64,000 nt of DNA from Ruditapes philippinarum (taxonomy: Eukaryota), in contig NW_026864466.1 in the NCBI RefSeq assembly GCF_026571515.1, forward strand, positions 1 to 64,000, read 5' to 3'. Numbering within the stretch: the first letter of the stretch is position 1; the number at the start of each line of letters is the position of its first letter. Positions 4,601 through 58,200 of the stretch are shown one piece after another. Position numbers: made by a program.

Positions 4601-7600
4601 ATCAATAGCACAGGGTTCGTCTCATATTGGTGCGACATGAAAAAAATACCAACTTGGATTATCTTTTGTATTAAATGAAGACTTCATTATTATATCGAAG
4701 TAGACAATCTTTATACATAAATAGATAGAGTTTGATTAAGTTGAGTATAAAGTAAGACTATGTGTGCATCTATCATCTTAATCTATTGGCTGATTAGGTC
4801 TTGTCAAACAATGCCTTTACATTGTATTTGGATATGACATATTATTCATAATAGTCATGTAAAGAAGTATAATGATATTGGCCCTAGACAATAACACTTC
4901 TTATTTAAAGTTGATCAAAACATGATTTTAAGAGTGCCGTAATCTATTAAGCTAAAATATTAATTGATACAAGTAAACAAACTGATTGATTATATATTGA
5001 ATTTGAATCAATACTGTTAGCTTAATCATTTCCTATAAATTCAAACTGAAATTAATTTCCGTGTCAGATAGTACAATGTAACATGGATTGTTTTTGAAAT
5101 GGTGGTCAGTGCTATCGTTTTATTTATTAAATCAAACAACCTTTACGACTTTAGTTGAGCGGTGTATCCGGTATGATATTATTAACATGAAATATAATTT
5201 TAAAGGAAAAACGTTCATTTTACTTTCGTTTTCGTTTATTTAAAATGACAACAACATTAAAGGAGTTCAAATAAGAATATAAAGACAAGAGTTACATATC
5301 GTATCTTCATAAATTCATATTCAATTTGGTTATGTCAATAATCGCGCGGCTCCTTCCTAATTATAACTTACATTAAAAGAGATAAATGAAATGGGATCGC
5401 GTTGTTGTCGTGAGAATAAAGATAAATTAGAGGTTGATGAGGGAGTAAGTCATAATAATGCAAAACGGCCGACCTCACCGTCAGAAGTTACAGTGGCTGA
5501 CAAAACACACGAAAGGTAAGGGAAAAAACTTGAAATACCTTTGAATTAGTTGATGATTACAGAAGTCTTAACAATAAATACTGGCTGAGTGGCTATGTAT
5601 GTTCACAAAAATTTTGCAAATGTCAAAAATGGACTTTTTGTGTGCAGAAAATTTTGCGAAAGTATGATTTCTTGAACTTAATACTGTTTTGGAATATCAT
5701 AAATTGGGCAGCTACATGTTAAGAATAGTTTAATACCTTTATTATTTATAACATTGTTTAAAATATATATTGCTTGTTTGATAAAGGACCTCAACGCACA
5801 TTTCTCCATCATACTTTAAAATATGGTTTGTTATATGAATAATATATTGTTTCATGTGATTTGTTAAGACCAAACTTACACAAACAAAGCAAGCGATGAG
5901 AAAAATTAATCCCAGTACTTAAACAATCAAACTTTATGCACTAAAGATGCTGTATGGAAACGTGTTTTCAAGAGATAAAAAAAAACGTTTGCCTTAAAAG
6001 AAATAAAATTTGCGCGATCACATATTTGCAAATAATTTCAATTCGCAACAATCGCAAATATTTCCACGTCGCAAAATAAACTACTAACACAGTAAGTTAA
6101 AATATTTATCTTAAATGGGGATAACAATACTAAATTGATTCGACTAATTTTGTCCCTATATCCTGAATAATACAAGAAATAAGTGAATCTTTGCGGAGTG
6201 CTTGTAATTTTTTCTTTATAAGTACATTACATTTAGGTTGTCAAAAATGTGTAACTTTTTTTTTTTTTGCGCGCGCTCCAACCGTTTTTTCTTTTTTCGG
6301 TTACCACCTTAAGCATTTAGAAATAAATAATGTTGAATTATGTTTGTTTTATTCCATACTAAAGATGTCTTTACAAAGAAAAGATGTACAAAAATGAAGT
6401 GAAAAAGCTAGAAAAACAACTGATGGACCTTGAAAAACTGACTATAGATAAAGATAAAGAGATTATTACACTAACAGAAAACCATAACCAACAGATGGAG
6501 GAGCACATTTTGAAGTAATGATATTTATTATCATTAGTTTATATGTTTAAGAAAATAGAATTATTAATGAAAATGTATGTATTGTAGTGTTATAAGGTTC
6601 TGGTAGAGTAGCATTTTGTCAACAGGATAAATCAGAGGAATGGCATAAATCTTGGTAATTTTTAATGTTGTAAACACAAACATCATAAGTTTATCACGCC
6701 ATTCGAATTAATGATTATTAAGAGTTTCCTCATTTTTGAAAAACAAATCCTTCTAATAGCAAAATTATTGTTCAGAAATATATCCATACTGGTCGGAAAC
6801 CATCAACCGGACACTTTTGGAACATTTTTCCGTACATATTTTATAATTTTTAACCTAGAGACCAAACAATTTGACACAGTTCAGCTAGGTTCTTCTCCTA
6901 ACTAACAAACTAATTTGTTTATTTCTGATTGTATTGACACTTGCATCTGAGGCTCGTAAAGGAGGGTATCAAAATTACCTAAATTGTCTACACTACAGTA
7001 CCATGTGTCCGGACAGATATGTACATGATGTGATTTAATTCAGATAAAAGCTTGGGTGTTATGATTTTTGATTTGTAACATGATATACAATATGTCAACA
7101 ACAAATGCTGAAGTTTTGGATATTCTATTATTCACTATGCAAATGATTATAGCTGGTATATGAGGTTAGGCATTGCTTTCTTGACCCCCGAATTTCAACG
7201 TCAACATTCTTGAAATAGACATTAAAATATTACCATTTACGGAGGTTGAAATAAATTTATTTACTTAATTTTTAAAGAAACATGCACTTATTGTTGATAA
7301 AAAAGTGACTGACAACCACAGAACAAAGTAAATACTAAATTAAGCATTTTCATGGCCGTCCGGGTTTGGTGGTTGTCCGGTTTTGGTGTTCCCAACCAGA
7401 AGTGGTAAATTAAGCTTACATTTTGCATACAGGTGACCTTTAAGACTTATAACTGTCCTATGTTGTCAATTTTACTGTTCTTTATAGTGCCCATTACCTA
7501 TGATCTACTTATAGGTCTACCTTTTCTAATGTTGAATTATGTTTGTTTTATTCCATATTTAAGATGTCTTTACAAAGAAAAGATGTACAAAAATGAAGAG

Positions 7601-55200: not shown

Positions 55201-58200
55201 CCAAGTGTTATTTCTATAATAGTTTTCCTGTGTTATCAATATATAACTTCTTATTGGCTGTGTGCGAAATGTTACCTATATATGAACTCTCTCACTCTCT
55301 GTTATCGATATACATATATATATATTCTTGTACTGTAGATACTTGTCTCTTGTATATCAATATATTAATTTTTACCTGTGTTTAAATACATGATTTCTGT
55401 CTCTGGTATCAATATACTTGTATGATTTGACCTTGTTTCATCAATGTATGAACTACAATATATTTGCCTCGCAGTCTCAGTTCAAGACATATATTGGATG
55501 GTCACGTGTTACAAAGCATAATAAGACACTATTTATAGAATTTATAATATCTGTATTTAATTATGTCAGTTAATACAAATGTGTATTTGTTTTAAGAGAT
55601 CAAGAGGAAATTGACAGGTTCCAAGCAGAAAATTATCAGCTGAAACAGAAAGTAAAAGATCTTGAAACGAACAATAATGAACTTCTTTCGAGGTAAGATG
55701 CTTTATTTAATGATGAATCTGTATTAAAATCGAAAAACAATTTATAGATAAATTATCCTACAATAATGATTCGAGATCACCCAGTAAAAATAATCTACCT
55801 AGAAAAAAGATCATTATAGATCTAATAATAAATCTATTAACACATAGACCACAAACGGGGCACATTTGCATTTGTGACAAACGACACATTTGATAACATC
55901 TATAAACGACAATAGACACAGTAACAAGTGTTTAATTGTTTGCTCGAAAAAGCTCTTTTTAATAATACGTCATTTGTCTTTCGGTTTTGACTAAACTCTA
56001 TTTCCTATTGAACATAAAGAAACTATTTGTATGAAATCAGCTTTTACTTTTTTGATACAGACTCAGTGCTGTAGCGAGCGCAAAGCTTACGGACAACAAT
56101 CCGAATATAGCGGATCTGAGTGATGTGAATCGGCCGACAAAGTTAGCGGAACAATTTTCAGAATTATATGACAATGAATGGACTGACGCATTTGATGCTC
56201 TCGCGAAGGAACAAGATGAGAGTAACAATGACAAAGAAGCTTGTACAAAACTGCTGAATGTATTAAATGTAAGTCAATTAATTGCTGCTTCTTTCAATCG
56301 TTGTATTATGCTGTTTCATCAATTCAAAAGTTTTGTATGAGGAGCAAAACAGATATACCTGGAATAAAGCTATAATTCCTTGTCCATATTAAAACACTAT
56401 TATAATAGTGCAATTTCTATTTACAAGAGGTCAAGAAATATTACAATTAATCCAGGCATGACCAACACATGCCAAGTCTACACGTAGTGACAAACAACAT
56501 CGATAAAGATGCCTCCAAACTACTCATATATTTGAATATAATATTTTTGTATTTAGGTATTGTTCTACCGTATCGCTTGTTATCGTAAAAGTTTTTCATA
56601 ATTATCAGAGAACAAAGAAAAGACGTTGACTCATTTGAATCTTTACACATAAAAAATTCTTTAAAATGTTGTGATACTTATTTATCAAAAGAAGGAAAAA
56701 AGGTCGAAAGTCAATAACTTTATTTATAAACGATTACTTGAACTTTATATTGACTTAAGAGAAGTTTGATTAAACGAAAAATCGTCTTATTTTTAGAAAA
56801 TATTTTCCATCTGTCACAAAAAGGCAAGCGGTGACCTGCAAATGATGATGCAAAAGCTCTCAGTAGAGTTGTTTGGGGTAATAATATTATTTCTTGTTAT
56901 TTTATATAACTGGTACCAGTTCTAACATCGTTAAAAACTCAGTTTAGTTTTGCTGAAATAGAGAAATACAGAATCCGTAAAGAAAGCCCAACATGGCAAA
57001 ATTGTAAAATGTTGCAGGCTCGGTTTGATTGAGCCTGTTCATGGACGATACTGGAAAGTGCAAGTTACCGTCCACGCCCCCTAGCACCGGCTGAAGCCAA
57101 TGGTAATGATCTTGAGAGATTGCACTTATTTCTAGCTGGCATGAATTGAATCAATCATAGGTGATCAATAGTGTGCCTACCATTTCAATGACAGGTGTAA
57201 TGGTTTTTGCATGGCAGATCTACAAATGTGCCTCCAAATTCATCTATCTGTATTATGTATTTCTGGTACTTGACGAATACTGTTACCAATTAGTTTTTTT
57301 TAACTCAAATACTACAGCAGCTTTTCAAAAGGCGATGGTGTATTATTATATGATACACTCATCATTACGTATCATGACTCAAACAGATGTCCCATTTCTC
57401 CTAGACTTTTATAATGAAAACATTAACCTTTAATCGTAATCATGAGTAGCAGCTGTACAAAAACTTCGTGTTCTTTCTCACACAGAAGTCTAACCAGATC
57501 ACTGACCAGTAAGGATGTTTCACTGTCAGTTTTACTTTAAGTAAATTAAACCAGTTTTCGTCACAATTCTTTTAATAAATTTATTAATTAACGACTTACG
57601 ATTATAATGATATAAACAACATATTATGATCAAAGACTAACTTGTTTTATCAGATGGGTGCGCCTTCTAAAGAAGTTATGAGAGCCATAAAAGATGACAG
57701 GAAAAAGCATTATGCTGGAATGGTGGAGCAACTTATGAAGGTATCTTGAAAAGACAAAAGAAGAAAAAACTCTGGCAGTATGCGAAATGTTAAAATAAAT
57801 GTTAATATTCATTCTAAACAGATAACAATATAAAACAGTTTTTTTTCCAATCATTCCCTATTATTATGGCCTTTTTTCATTTTAAGGGTTAAATTTGCGC
57901 ATGAATAAAACAAGCAAATTATACAAATGACCATTTCTTTATTTAATTCATTGAAACCTTACAGGTAATTTCATAAAAAAACGATATTTACAAACACAAT
58001 AAACGTCTTTAAACTATATTTGGATCATAGATATATTAAAAGTGTTTAAGGGATGCCATCTATACTAGAGTTCATTTAATTACTTTAAATATATGATAAA
58101 GATCACACACATACAGTTATTATCTTTAAATCCGCAGTTGGCTTATTTGTATAATTTTTATATTTGTTTTAGGATTGTAAATTCTCATTCGACGATGTAA

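What the first reader, a model, noticed from the sequence alone, without database searches (positions are those of the whole stretch)
6365..55692. Coiled-coil 'accordion': independent duplications of phase-2 symmetric exons in three paralogues
Seen: between exon 1 and the core exon, the firm exons are all phase 2-2 and multiples of 3: A 150+150+96, B 84+96, C 96+114+108+108+96, D 87+75+96. Intron-inclusive tandem duplications created the extra exons separately in A (6329-7935), C (40710-41835, plus the older 108/108 pair) and D (54632-55782), always in frame. Inference: stalk length between the membrane anchor and the domain (about 60-175 aa) is being diversified repeatedly, and the exons could be skipped or mutually exclusive to give length isoforms, like a molecular ruler.
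Basis: partly seen in the sequence, partly recalled or inferred. Interest (0 to 1): 0.75.

Follow-up and report, generated by a model that had tools for sequence, protein, structure and literature searches.

The report
Exon-duplicated stalks in clam MIEAP genes
Four neighbouring Manila clam genes of the bivalve-expanded "mitochondria-eating protein" family have each lengthened or shortened a helical spacer by duplicating or trimming frame-neutral exons, which is a real but ordinary way for such genes to evolve.

Summary
The window is a Ruditapes philippinarum (Manila clam) contig, not human. It carries four tandem + strand MIEAP-domain genes: A LOC132725706, B LOC132725705, C LOC132725704, D LOC132725703.

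There are four separate tandem duplications that include intron sequence: one in A, two in C, one in D. They hit four different exon classes and differ in age (non-exonic JC distance 0.05, 0.11, 0.26, 0.69). They are therefore independent.

The mechanism is ordinary. Copying or deleting a phase-symmetric exon keeps the reading frame, so such events survive.

The adaptive "ruler" reading is not shown.
- Gene A, which holds the youngest duplication, has a frameshifted, sub-threshold MIEAP domain.
- Duplicated exons are no better conserved than their introns in A or in C's first pair.
- Each window gene has one annotated isoform that includes all copies, so nothing suggests mutual exclusion.
- No transcript-derived protein was found.

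In favour: exonic indels stay in frame (3 of 3). A Mercenaria relative has isoforms that differ by exactly one duplicated 92-aa stalk unit.

The "membrane anchor" is only an N-terminal Gly/Cys acylation motif. There is no transmembrane segment.

Verdict: a new member of a known kind.

The parts
5391..5515 (+). Gene A (LOC132725706) exon 1, 125 nt, ends in phase 2. Encodes MGSRCC..., a Gly2/Cys acylation-type motif.
   Evidence: 100% match to P0008 residues 1-42
6328..7510 (+). Gene A duplication, copy 1: 6328-6735, then a 680-nt unique insert at 6736-7415, then 7416-7510. Contains exon s1a at 6365-6514 (150 nt, phase 2-2).
7527..8040 (+). Gene A duplication, copy 2: 7527-7934 plus 7946-8040. 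Contains exon s1b at 7564-7713 (150 nt, phase 2-2). It is 95.1% identical to copy 1.
8064..8159 (+). Gene A last stalk exon (sL), 96 nt, phase 2-2
9659..9854 (+). Gene A first MIEAP-domain ('core') exon, 196 nt, phase 2 in and 0 out
11232..11597 (+). Gene A last exon. It carries five non-triplet indels relative to B (+1, -4, -1, -1, -1 between 11304 and 11424), so about 40 codons of the conserved domain are read out of frame. It also has an early stop.
26490..26614 (+). Gene B (LOC132725705) exon 1, 125 nt, ends in phase 2 (MGSCFS...)
27860..27943 (+). Gene B stalk exon s1, 84 nt, phase 2-2. Homologous to A's 150-nt exons, with a 54-nt internal deletion and an acceptor 12 nt further downstream.
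28846..28941 (+). Gene B last stalk exon sL, 96 nt, phase 2-2
29523..29718 (+). Gene B core exon, 196 nt
40148..40284 (+). Gene C (LOC132725704) exon 1, 137 nt, ends in phase 2 (MGSCCS...)
40677..41216 (+). Gene C first duplication, copy 1. Contains exon s0a at 41105-41200 (96 nt, phase 2-2, His/Lys-rich, not predicted helical).
41260..41796 (+). Gene C first duplication, copy 2. Contains exon s0b at 41667-41780 (114 nt, phase 2-2). It is 72.6% identical to copy 1, with an 18-nt in-frame exonic indel.
42274..42399 (+). Gene C older duplication, copy 1. Contains exon s2a at 42286-42393 (108 nt, phase 2-2).
42467..42592 (+). Gene C older duplication, copy 2. Contains exon s2b at 42479-42586 (108 nt, phase 2-2). 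An 85-nt intron separates the two exons.
43287..43382 (+). Gene C last stalk exon sL, 96 nt, phase 2-2
44353..44554 (+). Gene C core exon, 202 nt
52493..52629 (+). Gene D (LOC132725703) exon 1, 137 nt, ends in phase 2. Encodes MSDCCCC...: a Cys cluster with no Gly2.
53277..53363 (+). Gene D stalk exon s1, 87 nt, phase 2-2
54633..55193 (+). Gene D duplication, copy 1. Contains exon sLa at 55028-55102 (75 nt, phase 2-2). It is 21 nt, one heptad, shorter than its twin.
55194..55783 (+). Gene D duplication, copy 2, directly abutting copy 1. Contains exon sLb at 55597-55692 (96 nt, phase 2-2).
56061..56268 (+). Gene D core exon, 208 nt

Best explanation
The window is a tandem array of four paralogues of the MIEAP-domain (PF16026, 'mitochondria-eating protein') family, which is greatly expanded in bivalves. 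The species is the Manila clam.

Each gene has the same plan:
- exon 1 encodes a short N-terminus with a Gly2/Cys or Cys-cluster motif and ends in phase 2;
- a variable run of small phase 2-2 exons encodes a heptad-rich helix, the stalk;
- the first domain exon opens in phase 2;
- a low-complexity tail follows the domain.

Because every stalk exon is symmetric, any unequal exchange or replication slip with breakpoints in the flanking introns adds or removes one exon without disturbing the frame or the domain. Such events are tolerated and accumulate. Four of them, of four different ages and in four different exon classes, are visible here, together with in-frame trimming inside exons (54, 21 and 18 nt).

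The result is a set of paralogues whose predicted helical spacer runs from 60 to 174 aa. A close relative on another contig has no spacer at all.

Shown: the exon structure, the duplications and their independence, helix/coiled-coil propensity, family membership, and the decay of gene A.

Inferred: lipid anchoring of the N-terminus, dimeric coiled-coil formation in the animal, and any functional meaning of stalk length. My reading is that this is mainly permissive, birth-and-death evolution of a modular spacer. The frame is kept by selection in B, C and D. Selection on length itself is not demonstrated.
For: Identity and family:
- Single-exon searches return R. philippinarum proteins at 100% identity on a 91,954-nt contig.
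- Pfam MIEAP scores are 69.2 bits (B), 60.4 (C) and 134.6 (P0002, the fused model that includes D) against a cut-off of 27.
- The family is reported as one of the largest bivalve expansions: OG24, 807 genes, 53.1 per bivalve vs 0.6 in others (PMC8382680, passages read).

Structure:
- All 14 stalk exons are 2-2 with AG/GT, and NCBI models use all of them.

Independence:
- Each duplicate's best partner is in the same gene: z 26.3, 16.8, 14.9, 5.7. Cross-gene matches link A-B sL, A-B s1 and B-D s1.
- Non-exonic JC distances are 0.048 (A), 0.113 (D), 0.263 (C1) and 0.69 (C2), against 0.243 for the A/B gene duplication.

Frame kept:
- Exonic indels are multiples of 3 in 3 of 3 cases (21, 18, 54 nt), against 5 of 19 in the adjoining non-exonic alignments. 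By hand this gives a hypergeometric p of 56/1540 = 0.036.
- In D, exon identity is 72/75 (96.0%) vs 435/486 (89.5%) outside (p=0.09). In C2 it is 75/108 vs 51/93 (p=0.04).

Helix and coiled coil:
- Crude heptad score.
- AF2 single-sequence model of P0121: one helix at 69-236, with pLDDT 83-96 for residues 81-220.
- Two copies of D's stalk (P0002 residues 47-131, no alignment) scored 0.50, best of 3 controls 0.00. That mark was reached by 21 of 30 microbial proteins solved as pairs of one chain and 0 of 23 solved as single chains. On eukaryotes it was reached by 17 of 29 (animals 7 of 16), but by only 1 of the 7 with no older solved relative, and by 0 of 30 single chains. The runs agree in at least 95% of contacts, and partner pLDDT is at least 87.
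- Contacts are in register and parallel with 3/4 spacing. The single 4-4 step, at residues 97-101, falls at the junction of the two duplicated exons.

Family context:
- In the Gly/Cys-headed subfamily the core motif starts anywhere from residue 55 to residue 331.
- P0007 joins exon 1 directly to the core exon, and P0010 has one 32-aa stalk exon.
- Mercenaria paralogues P0011 and P0013 differ by a clean 32-aa stalk block.
- Pre-core internal repeats with z>5 occur in 11 of 64 scanned proteins, 8 of them outside this window.
Against: - No transcript evidence for any of the four genes. Their 90% clusters have one member each. A search with D's stalk against shorter proteins gave 605 candidates and 0 hits. 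The NCBI models may therefore be computational only.
- Exons are not better conserved than introns in A (142/150 vs 246/258, p=0.81) or in C1 (72/96 vs 330/424, p=0.59). dN/dS for C's s0 pair is 1.25 (tiny counts). Some duplicate exons may thus be drifting or unused.
- C's s0a/s0b donors are GTTAGA, which departs from the usual GTRAGT consensus (consensus recalled).
- Gene A is degenerate.
- Stalk DNA is not significantly enriched in local duplications (p=0.17).
- The heptad score is home-made. The z-scores use only 30 composition shuffles, which low-complexity coiled-coil sequence can inflate.
- The dimer pass may reflect the generic likeness of coiled coils to solved structures.
Confidence: 0.75

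Rival explanations
1. Adaptive length tuning, the reader's 'molecular ruler'. Stalk length sets the distance between a lipid-anchored N-terminus and the MIEAP domain. It is under diversifying selection, and cassette splicing of the duplicated exons gives length isoforms.
For: - Stalks of 60, 86, 132 and 174 aa lie side by side, and relatives have 0 and 32 aa.
- Exonic indels stay in frame in 3 of 3 cases.
- D lost exactly one heptad (21 nt) in one copy.
- Mercenaria isoforms X1 (P0154, 582 aa) and X2 (P0090, 490 aa) of one gene are identical except for one 92-aa duplicated stalk unit.
- Dreissena LOC127877239 isoforms lack 29- or 30-aa pre-core blocks, and LOC127876413 X2 lacks 81 aa.
Against: - There is one isoform per window gene, with all exons included.
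- No transcript-derived protein was found.
- The youngest event sits in a gene with a broken domain.
- There is no excess conservation of the duplicated exons in A and C1.
- In relatives, in-frame isoform differences of 15 aa or more are not special to the stalk: 5 lie before the core and 8 after it.
- Lipid anchoring is untested, and D lacks Gly2.
Confidence: 0.2
2. Neutral debris. At least some duplicated exons are unused pseudo-exons or lie in decaying genes, and the gene models include them only because they are open and have AG/GT.
For: - Gene A has five frameshifting indels and a MIEAP score of 25.5 bits, below the 27 cut-off, covering only profile positions 1-81 of 195.
- A's exon and intron identities are equal.
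- C's s0 pair has dN/dS 1.25 and non-consensus GTTAGA donors.
- The locus holds dead pieces: an s1-type exon with two stops at 33349-33468 and a minus-strand core relic at 16664-16906.
Against: - Both copies are still open after 25-30% divergence in C, with an in-frame 18-nt indel.
- D's exon copies are 96% identical against 89.5% for the flanks.
- C2's exons are better conserved than their flanks (p=0.04).
- B, C and D have intact full-length domains.
Confidence: 0.3
3. Assembly artefact. The tandem copies are falsely expanded or are collapsed haplotypes.
For: The contig is a short (91,954 nt) scaffold of a highly heterozygous bivalve genome. No second assembly could be consulted.
Against: The copies differ by 5%, 14%, 27% and 29% and carry private indels, including a 680-nt insert in A's copy 1 and 21-nt and 18-nt exonic indels. 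That is not what mis-joined identical reads or alleles produce.
Confidence: 0.03

Closest known systems
Human Mieap / SPATA18 (PF16026)
   Same: An N-terminal hydrophilic half with coiled coils is followed by the conserved C-terminal MIEAP region. In the human protein there are two coiled-coil domains within residues 92-311, and the C-terminal hydrophobic structured region is proposed to bind cardiolipin-type lipids (PMC10845071, passages read). B, C and D match the Pfam profile over positions 1-193 of 195.
   Different: The clam genes belong to a huge lineage-specific expansion (PMC8382680). They carry an N-terminal Gly/Cys motif and a long low-complexity tail, and their coiled-coil part is a short, variable string of symmetric exons. 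Nothing here shows a mitochondrial role. I did not examine the exon structure of the human gene.
Tandem exon duplication in animal genes (Kondrashov & Koonin 2001; Letunic et al. 2002, as cited in PMC9741552)
   Same: Adjacent homologous exons are created together with intron sequence, and the frame is preserved.
   Different: The classic interest is in mutually exclusive use of equal-length twins. PMC9741552 (passages read) states that tandem duplication is common but mutually exclusive splicing of the copies is not. Here both copies are included in the models and simply lengthen a spacer.
Neck-length variation of DC-SIGNR / L-SIGN (CLEC4M)
   Same: A helical neck of variable repeat number lies between a membrane anchor and a globular domain. 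This is the 'ruler' analogy. The neck VNTR is described in the abstracts of PMC2797785 and PMC11945572 (search listing only).
   Different: There the repeats lie within one exon, vary between individuals, and belong to an extracellular type II membrane protein. Here the units are whole exons with introns, vary between paralogues, and the protein has no transmembrane segment.
Annotated stalk-cassette isoforms in MIEAP-family genes of other clams (Mercenaria P0154/P0090; Dreissena LOC127877239, LOC127876413)
   Same: Same family and same position before the core exon. The differences are in-frame blocks of 24-92 aa, and one of them equals a duplicated unit.
   Different: They are other genes in other species, and most lack the N-terminal Gly/Cys head. 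The isoforms are NCBI predictions whose RNA support I could not see.

Membership tests
MIEAP domain family (Pfam PF16026) | Whole-protein score at or above the gathering cut-off (27 bits), with the profile covered end to end | tested here: met
   B 69.2 bits, C 60.4 bits, P0002 (D plus a fused neighbour) 134.6 bits, all covering profile 1-193/195. D's last exon alone scores 52.2 bits.
MIEAP domain family (Pfam PF16026), gene A only | Whole-protein score at or above the gathering cut-off (27 bits) | tested here: not met
   P0008 scores 25.5 bits and covers only profile 1-81/195. The cause is five non-triplet indels in the last exon. A is a degenerate member by descent.
Tandem exon duplication | Adjacent exons significantly similar to each other, with similarity extending into the flanking introns | tested here: met
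   Four pairs. Flank similarity is clear for A, C1 and D, and weak for C2 (54.8% outside the exons).
Tandem exon duplication | Both copies keep splice sites and an open frame | tested here: met
   All eight exons have AG/GT, are open and are phase 2-2.
Mutually exclusive tandem exons (exon substitution events) | Transcripts carry one copy or the other, never both | tested here: not met
   The only models available (P0008, P0121, P0002) include both copies. Inclusion of both keeps the frame, so nothing enforces exclusion. Real transcripts were not available.
Cassette (skipped) exons giving length isoforms | Isoforms of the same gene with and without the exon | tested here: inconclusive
   None for the four window genes: one-member clusters and 0 hits. 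Present in relatives.
Coiled coil | Heptad pattern in a long uninterrupted helix that pairs with a second chain | tested here: met
   Heptad score is 0.44-0.79 for 13 of 14 stalk exons vs a null of about 0.3. C's s0a scores 0.23. In C, helix 69-236 has pLDDT 83-96 over residues 81-220. The D stalk dimer scored 0.50 vs a best control of 0.00, with the calibration counts given in the For line. These are predictions only.
Dual-acylation (myristoyl-Gly2 plus palmitoyl-Cys) membrane anchor | Met-Gly start with Cys within the next few residues (motif definition recalled, not from a call) | tested here: inconclusive
   A MGSRCC, B MGSCFS, C MGSCCS. D is MSDCCCC, with no Gly2. Of 121 family proteins, 17 start MG with Cys at positions 3-9, and 5 more have CC within the first 12 residues. 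Lipidation itself is not testable with these tools.
Transmembrane anchor | A hydrophobic stretch of about 19 residues | tested here: not met
   The maximum 19-residue Kyte-Doolittle mean is 0.87-1.63 in B, C, D and P0007. The only higher value (1.84) lies in A's out-of-frame stretch.

The most novel reading that the evidence does not exclude
A subfamily of clam MIEAP-domain proteins works as a graded set of lipid-anchored coiled-coil tethers. They hold a lipid-binding domain about 0 to 25 nm from a membrane. Tether length is the trait under selection, is renewed continually by cassette-exon gain and loss, and is further varied by splicing. The subfamily sits in a stress or immune gene neighbourhood, with C1q genes duplicated alongside.
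Probability: 0.12. Interest if true: 0.6.

Novelty: new member of a known kind. Interest (0 to 1): 0.3.

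Why it matters
The bivalve Mieap expansion is known only as a gene count (PMC8382680). This locus shows at base-pair resolution one way in which the copies come to differ. A spacer built from phase-symmetric exons grows and shrinks, while the domain exons stay fixed or, in gene A, decay.

It also gives a compact natural series of stalk lengths: 0, 32, 60, 86, 132 and 174 aa. That series could be used to ask whether spacer length matters for this poorly understood domain. 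As a mechanism of gene evolution it is textbook, and nothing here overturns current views.

Tried and rejected
- Transcript evidence. The four NCBI proteins each sit alone in their 90% cluster. A search with D's stalk (P0002 residues 47-131) among proteins shorter than 554 aa gave 605 candidates and no hit. Inclusion or skipping in these genes therefore stays unchecked.
- Completeness of the first family search. It did not list gene C's own protein, so those searches are not exhaustive.
- Transmembrane anchor. Rejected.
- Mutual exclusion. No feature enforces it. The shortest intron between twins is 85 nt, and both copies together keep the frame.
- Excess of duplications in stalk DNA. Not significant (p=0.17).
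- Heptad-multiple exon lengths. Exon lengths are 25-50 aa and only one (28 aa) is a multiple of 7, so exon insertion generally shifts the register. The dimer model shows one such 4-4 step at D's duplicated junction.
- Solved structures. No PDB relative of gene B's protein was found (best E=0.16, a coiled-coil match).
- Selection tests on the duplicated exons. They rest on 3 to 32 substitutions and decide nothing.
- Literature. Searches for this family combined with coiled-coil, exon duplication or the clam found the family expansion but no description of stalk-exon duplication.
- Sources I could not reach. Supplementary files of PMC8382680, which might show gene structures, were closed. No eukaryotic genome collection was on hand, so orthologous loci and a second assembly stayed unchecked.
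- Script error. One row (P0015) was mis-sliced by my script and should be ignored.

Full report
**What the window is.**
The window has about 31% G+C and no N. A search with one exon (29524-29718) returned Ruditapes philippinarum proteins. One of them was 100% identical and came from a 91,954-nt contig. The sequence is therefore Manila clam, not human.

Four genes lie head to tail on the + strand.
- A is LOC132725706 (P0008, 414 aa).
- B is LOC132725705 (P0003, 497 aa).
- C is LOC132725704 (P0121, 652 aa).
- D is LOC132725703 (P0002, 1008 aa).

B, C and D match Pfam MIEAP (PF16026, 'mitochondria-eating protein') over the whole profile. A does not reach the cut-off.

I made no spliced model of my own and left that joined step out. 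Window searches used single exons. All work on whole proteins used NCBI's public models as the search returned them.

**The observation.**
I placed every exon by hand from the sequence and from tblastn of the NCBI proteins. All have AG and GT, all are open, and all are phase 2-2. Exon 1 ends in phase 2 in all four genes, and the first domain exon starts in phase 2. The NCBI models contain exactly these exon chains.

Self-BLASTN shows four local tandem duplications that carry intron sequence with the exon:

| Gene / event | Copy 1 | Copy 2 | Identity |
|---|---|---|---|
| A | 6328-6735 | 7527-7934 | 95.1% |
| C, first pair | 40677-41216 | 41260-41796 | 72.6% |
| C, older pair | 42274-42399 | 42467-42592 | 71.4% |
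| D | 54633-55193 | 55194-55783 | 86.3% |

In A the true unit is about 530 nt. Copy 1 also holds a 680-nt unique insert, which gives the 1199-nt period.

**Independence and age.**
Each duplicated exon is most similar to its twin in the same gene. The cross-gene matches define exon classes: s1 in A, B and D, and the last stalk exon sL in A and B.

A copied its s1 exon. D copied the last stalk exon. C copied two further exons. So four different exons were hit.

Non-exonic Jukes-Cantor distances are 0.048 (A), 0.113 (D), 0.263 (C, first pair) and 0.69 (C, older pair). For comparison, the 20-kb segmental duplication that made A and B has a distance of 0.243. The process has therefore run over a long time, and A's event is younger than the A/B split.

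**More than chance?**
- All 4 of 4 local duplications inside the stalk regions enclose a complete exon. Random placement of units of those sizes gives a joint probability of about 0.006.
- By my count, 4 of 9 ancestral stalk exons are duplicated against 0 of 20 other coding exons of the same genes (Fisher p=0.005). This is a rough test, because A and B share ancestry.
- The stalk regions are not significantly richer in local duplications than the rest of the window. By my grouping, 4 of 10 fall in 22.7% of the bases (p=0.17).

The bias is therefore in what is kept or seen as an exon. No raised duplication rate is demonstrated.

**Why they are in frame.**
Copying a 2-2 exon cannot break the frame, so 'always in frame' is built in and is not evidence of selection.

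What happened afterwards is more informative. The three indels inside stalk exons are 21, 18 and 54 nt, all multiples of three. Only 5 of 19 indels in the adjoining non-exonic alignments are multiples of three. By hand this gives a hypergeometric p of 0.036. That argues that the frame has been kept in B, C and D.

**Signs against an adaptive reading.**
- Gene A, which holds the youngest duplication, has five non-triplet indels in its last exon relative to B. About 40 codons of the most conserved part of the domain are read out of frame, and the gene then stops early. Its Pfam score is 25.5 bits against a cut-off of 27, over profile positions 1-81 only.
- In A the duplicated exons are no better conserved than the duplicated intron: 142/150 against 246/258 (p=0.81). 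The same holds for C's first pair: 72/96 against 330/424 (p=0.59).
- D (72/75 against 435/486, p=0.09) and C's older pair (75/108 against 51/93, p=0.04) lean the other way.
- dN/dS values rest on a handful of changes and decide nothing.
- The locus also holds dead pieces of the family.

**Coiled coil and anchor.**
A crude heptad score is 0.44-0.79 for 13 of 14 stalk exons, against about 0.3 for shuffled sequence. C's His/Lys-rich exon 41105-41200 scores 0.23.

A single-sequence AlphaFold2 model of C is poor overall (mean pLDDT 51). It does give one helix at residues 69-236, with pLDDT 83-96 over residues 81-220. That covers the region from the second stalk exon to the end of the stalk. Exon 1 and most of the first stalk exon have low confidence.

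Two copies of D's stalk were predicted to pair.
- The score was 0.50, and the best of 3 controls was 0.00.
- That mark was reached by 21 of 30 microbial proteins solved as pairs of one chain and by 0 of 23 solved as single chains.
- On eukaryotes it was reached by 17 of 29 (animals 7 of 16), but by only 1 of 7 with no older solved relative, and by 0 of 30 single chains.
- The runs agree in at least 95% of contacts, and partner pLDDT is at least 87.
- The contacts are in register and parallel with 3/4 spacing. The single 4-4 step, at residues 97-101, falls where the two duplicated exons meet.
- The pass may owe much to the general likeness of coiled coils.

There is no transmembrane segment. 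The 'membrane anchor' is the N-terminal MGSRCC / MGSCFS / MGSCCS of A, B and C, and the MSDCCCC of D. I read these as acylation motifs from general knowledge. This is an inference.

**Family context.**
- The bivalve Mieap expansion is in print: OG24, 807 genes, 53.1 per bivalve against 0.6 elsewhere (PMC8382680, passages read).
- Human Mieap also has coiled coils before the conserved C-terminal region (PMC10845071, passages read).
- Among the 121 family proteins collected here, 17 start MG with a nearby Cys, and 5 more have an N-terminal CC. In this group the core motif begins anywhere from residue 55 to residue 331.
- P0007, a close relative of A and B on another contig, joins exon 1 directly to the core exon. 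P0010 has a single 32-aa stalk exon.
- Two Mercenaria paralogues differ by a clean 32-aa stalk block.
- Internal repeats before the core with z>5 occur in 11 of 64 proteins scanned. Three of these are the window's own, one row was mis-sliced, and the controls were only 30 shuffles.

**Isoforms.**
Each window gene has one NCBI model and a one-member cluster. A search with D's stalk found no shorter protein. Skipping and mutual exclusion are therefore untested for these genes. The models include both twins, which speaks against exclusion.

In relatives:
- Mercenaria isoforms X1 (P0154) and X2 (P0090) are identical except for one 92-aa duplicated stalk unit.
- Dreissena genes have isoforms that lack 29, 30 or 81 aa before the core.
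- In-frame isoform differences of 15 aa or more are not confined to the stalk. Five lie before the core and eight after it.

**Verdict.**
It is best explained as permissive gain, loss and trimming of phase-symmetric spacer exons in a fast-turning-over gene family.

Tandem exon duplication is common in animals, while mutually exclusive use of the copies is rare (PMC9741552, passages read). My literature searches found no description of this particular case. I therefore rate it a new member of a known kind, of modest interest. The ruler idea remains open but unsupported.

Noticed in passing
window 15-11559 and 19378-31575: A segmental duplication of about 20 kb at roughly 80% identity copied a C1q-domain gene together with the MIEAP-family gene. 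The C1q ORF at 2271-2681 scores Pfam C1q 54.2 bits, and its copy lies near 22352-22992. Genes A and B are the products of this duplication.
   Followed up: partly
window 13740-15274: A satellite of about 10.6 copies of a 146-nt unit (also scored as a 293-nt period) lies between genes A and B.
   Followed up: no
window 16664-16906 (minus strand): A weak relic of a MIEAP core exon lies on the opposite strand (38-40% identity to family proteins, E about 1e-7).
   Followed up: no
window 33349-33468, 34579-35171, 35215-35349: A dead copy of the s1-type stalk exon has two in-frame stops. Nearby are scrambled pieces that match gene B's introns at 83% and 74%. Together they look like the remains of a lost paralogue between B and C.
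   Followed up: partly
window 58173-58679 and beyond 64000: NCBI's model for D (P0002, 1008 aa) reads through into a second MIEAP gene whose exons are not in the window. D's own frame stops right after ...THF at 58677-58679. Mercenaria relatives P0011, P0013 and P0018 also end in THF, so the model is probably a fusion of two genes.
   Followed up: partly
window 6736-7415: A 680-nt insert is present only in copy 1 of A's duplicated unit. It has no other copy in the window and its nature is unknown.
   Followed up: partly
window 3296-3631 and 51493-51700: Two further short tandem repeats lie outside the genes: a 161-nt unit with 2.1 copies, and an 86-nt unit with 2.4 copies.
   Followed up: no
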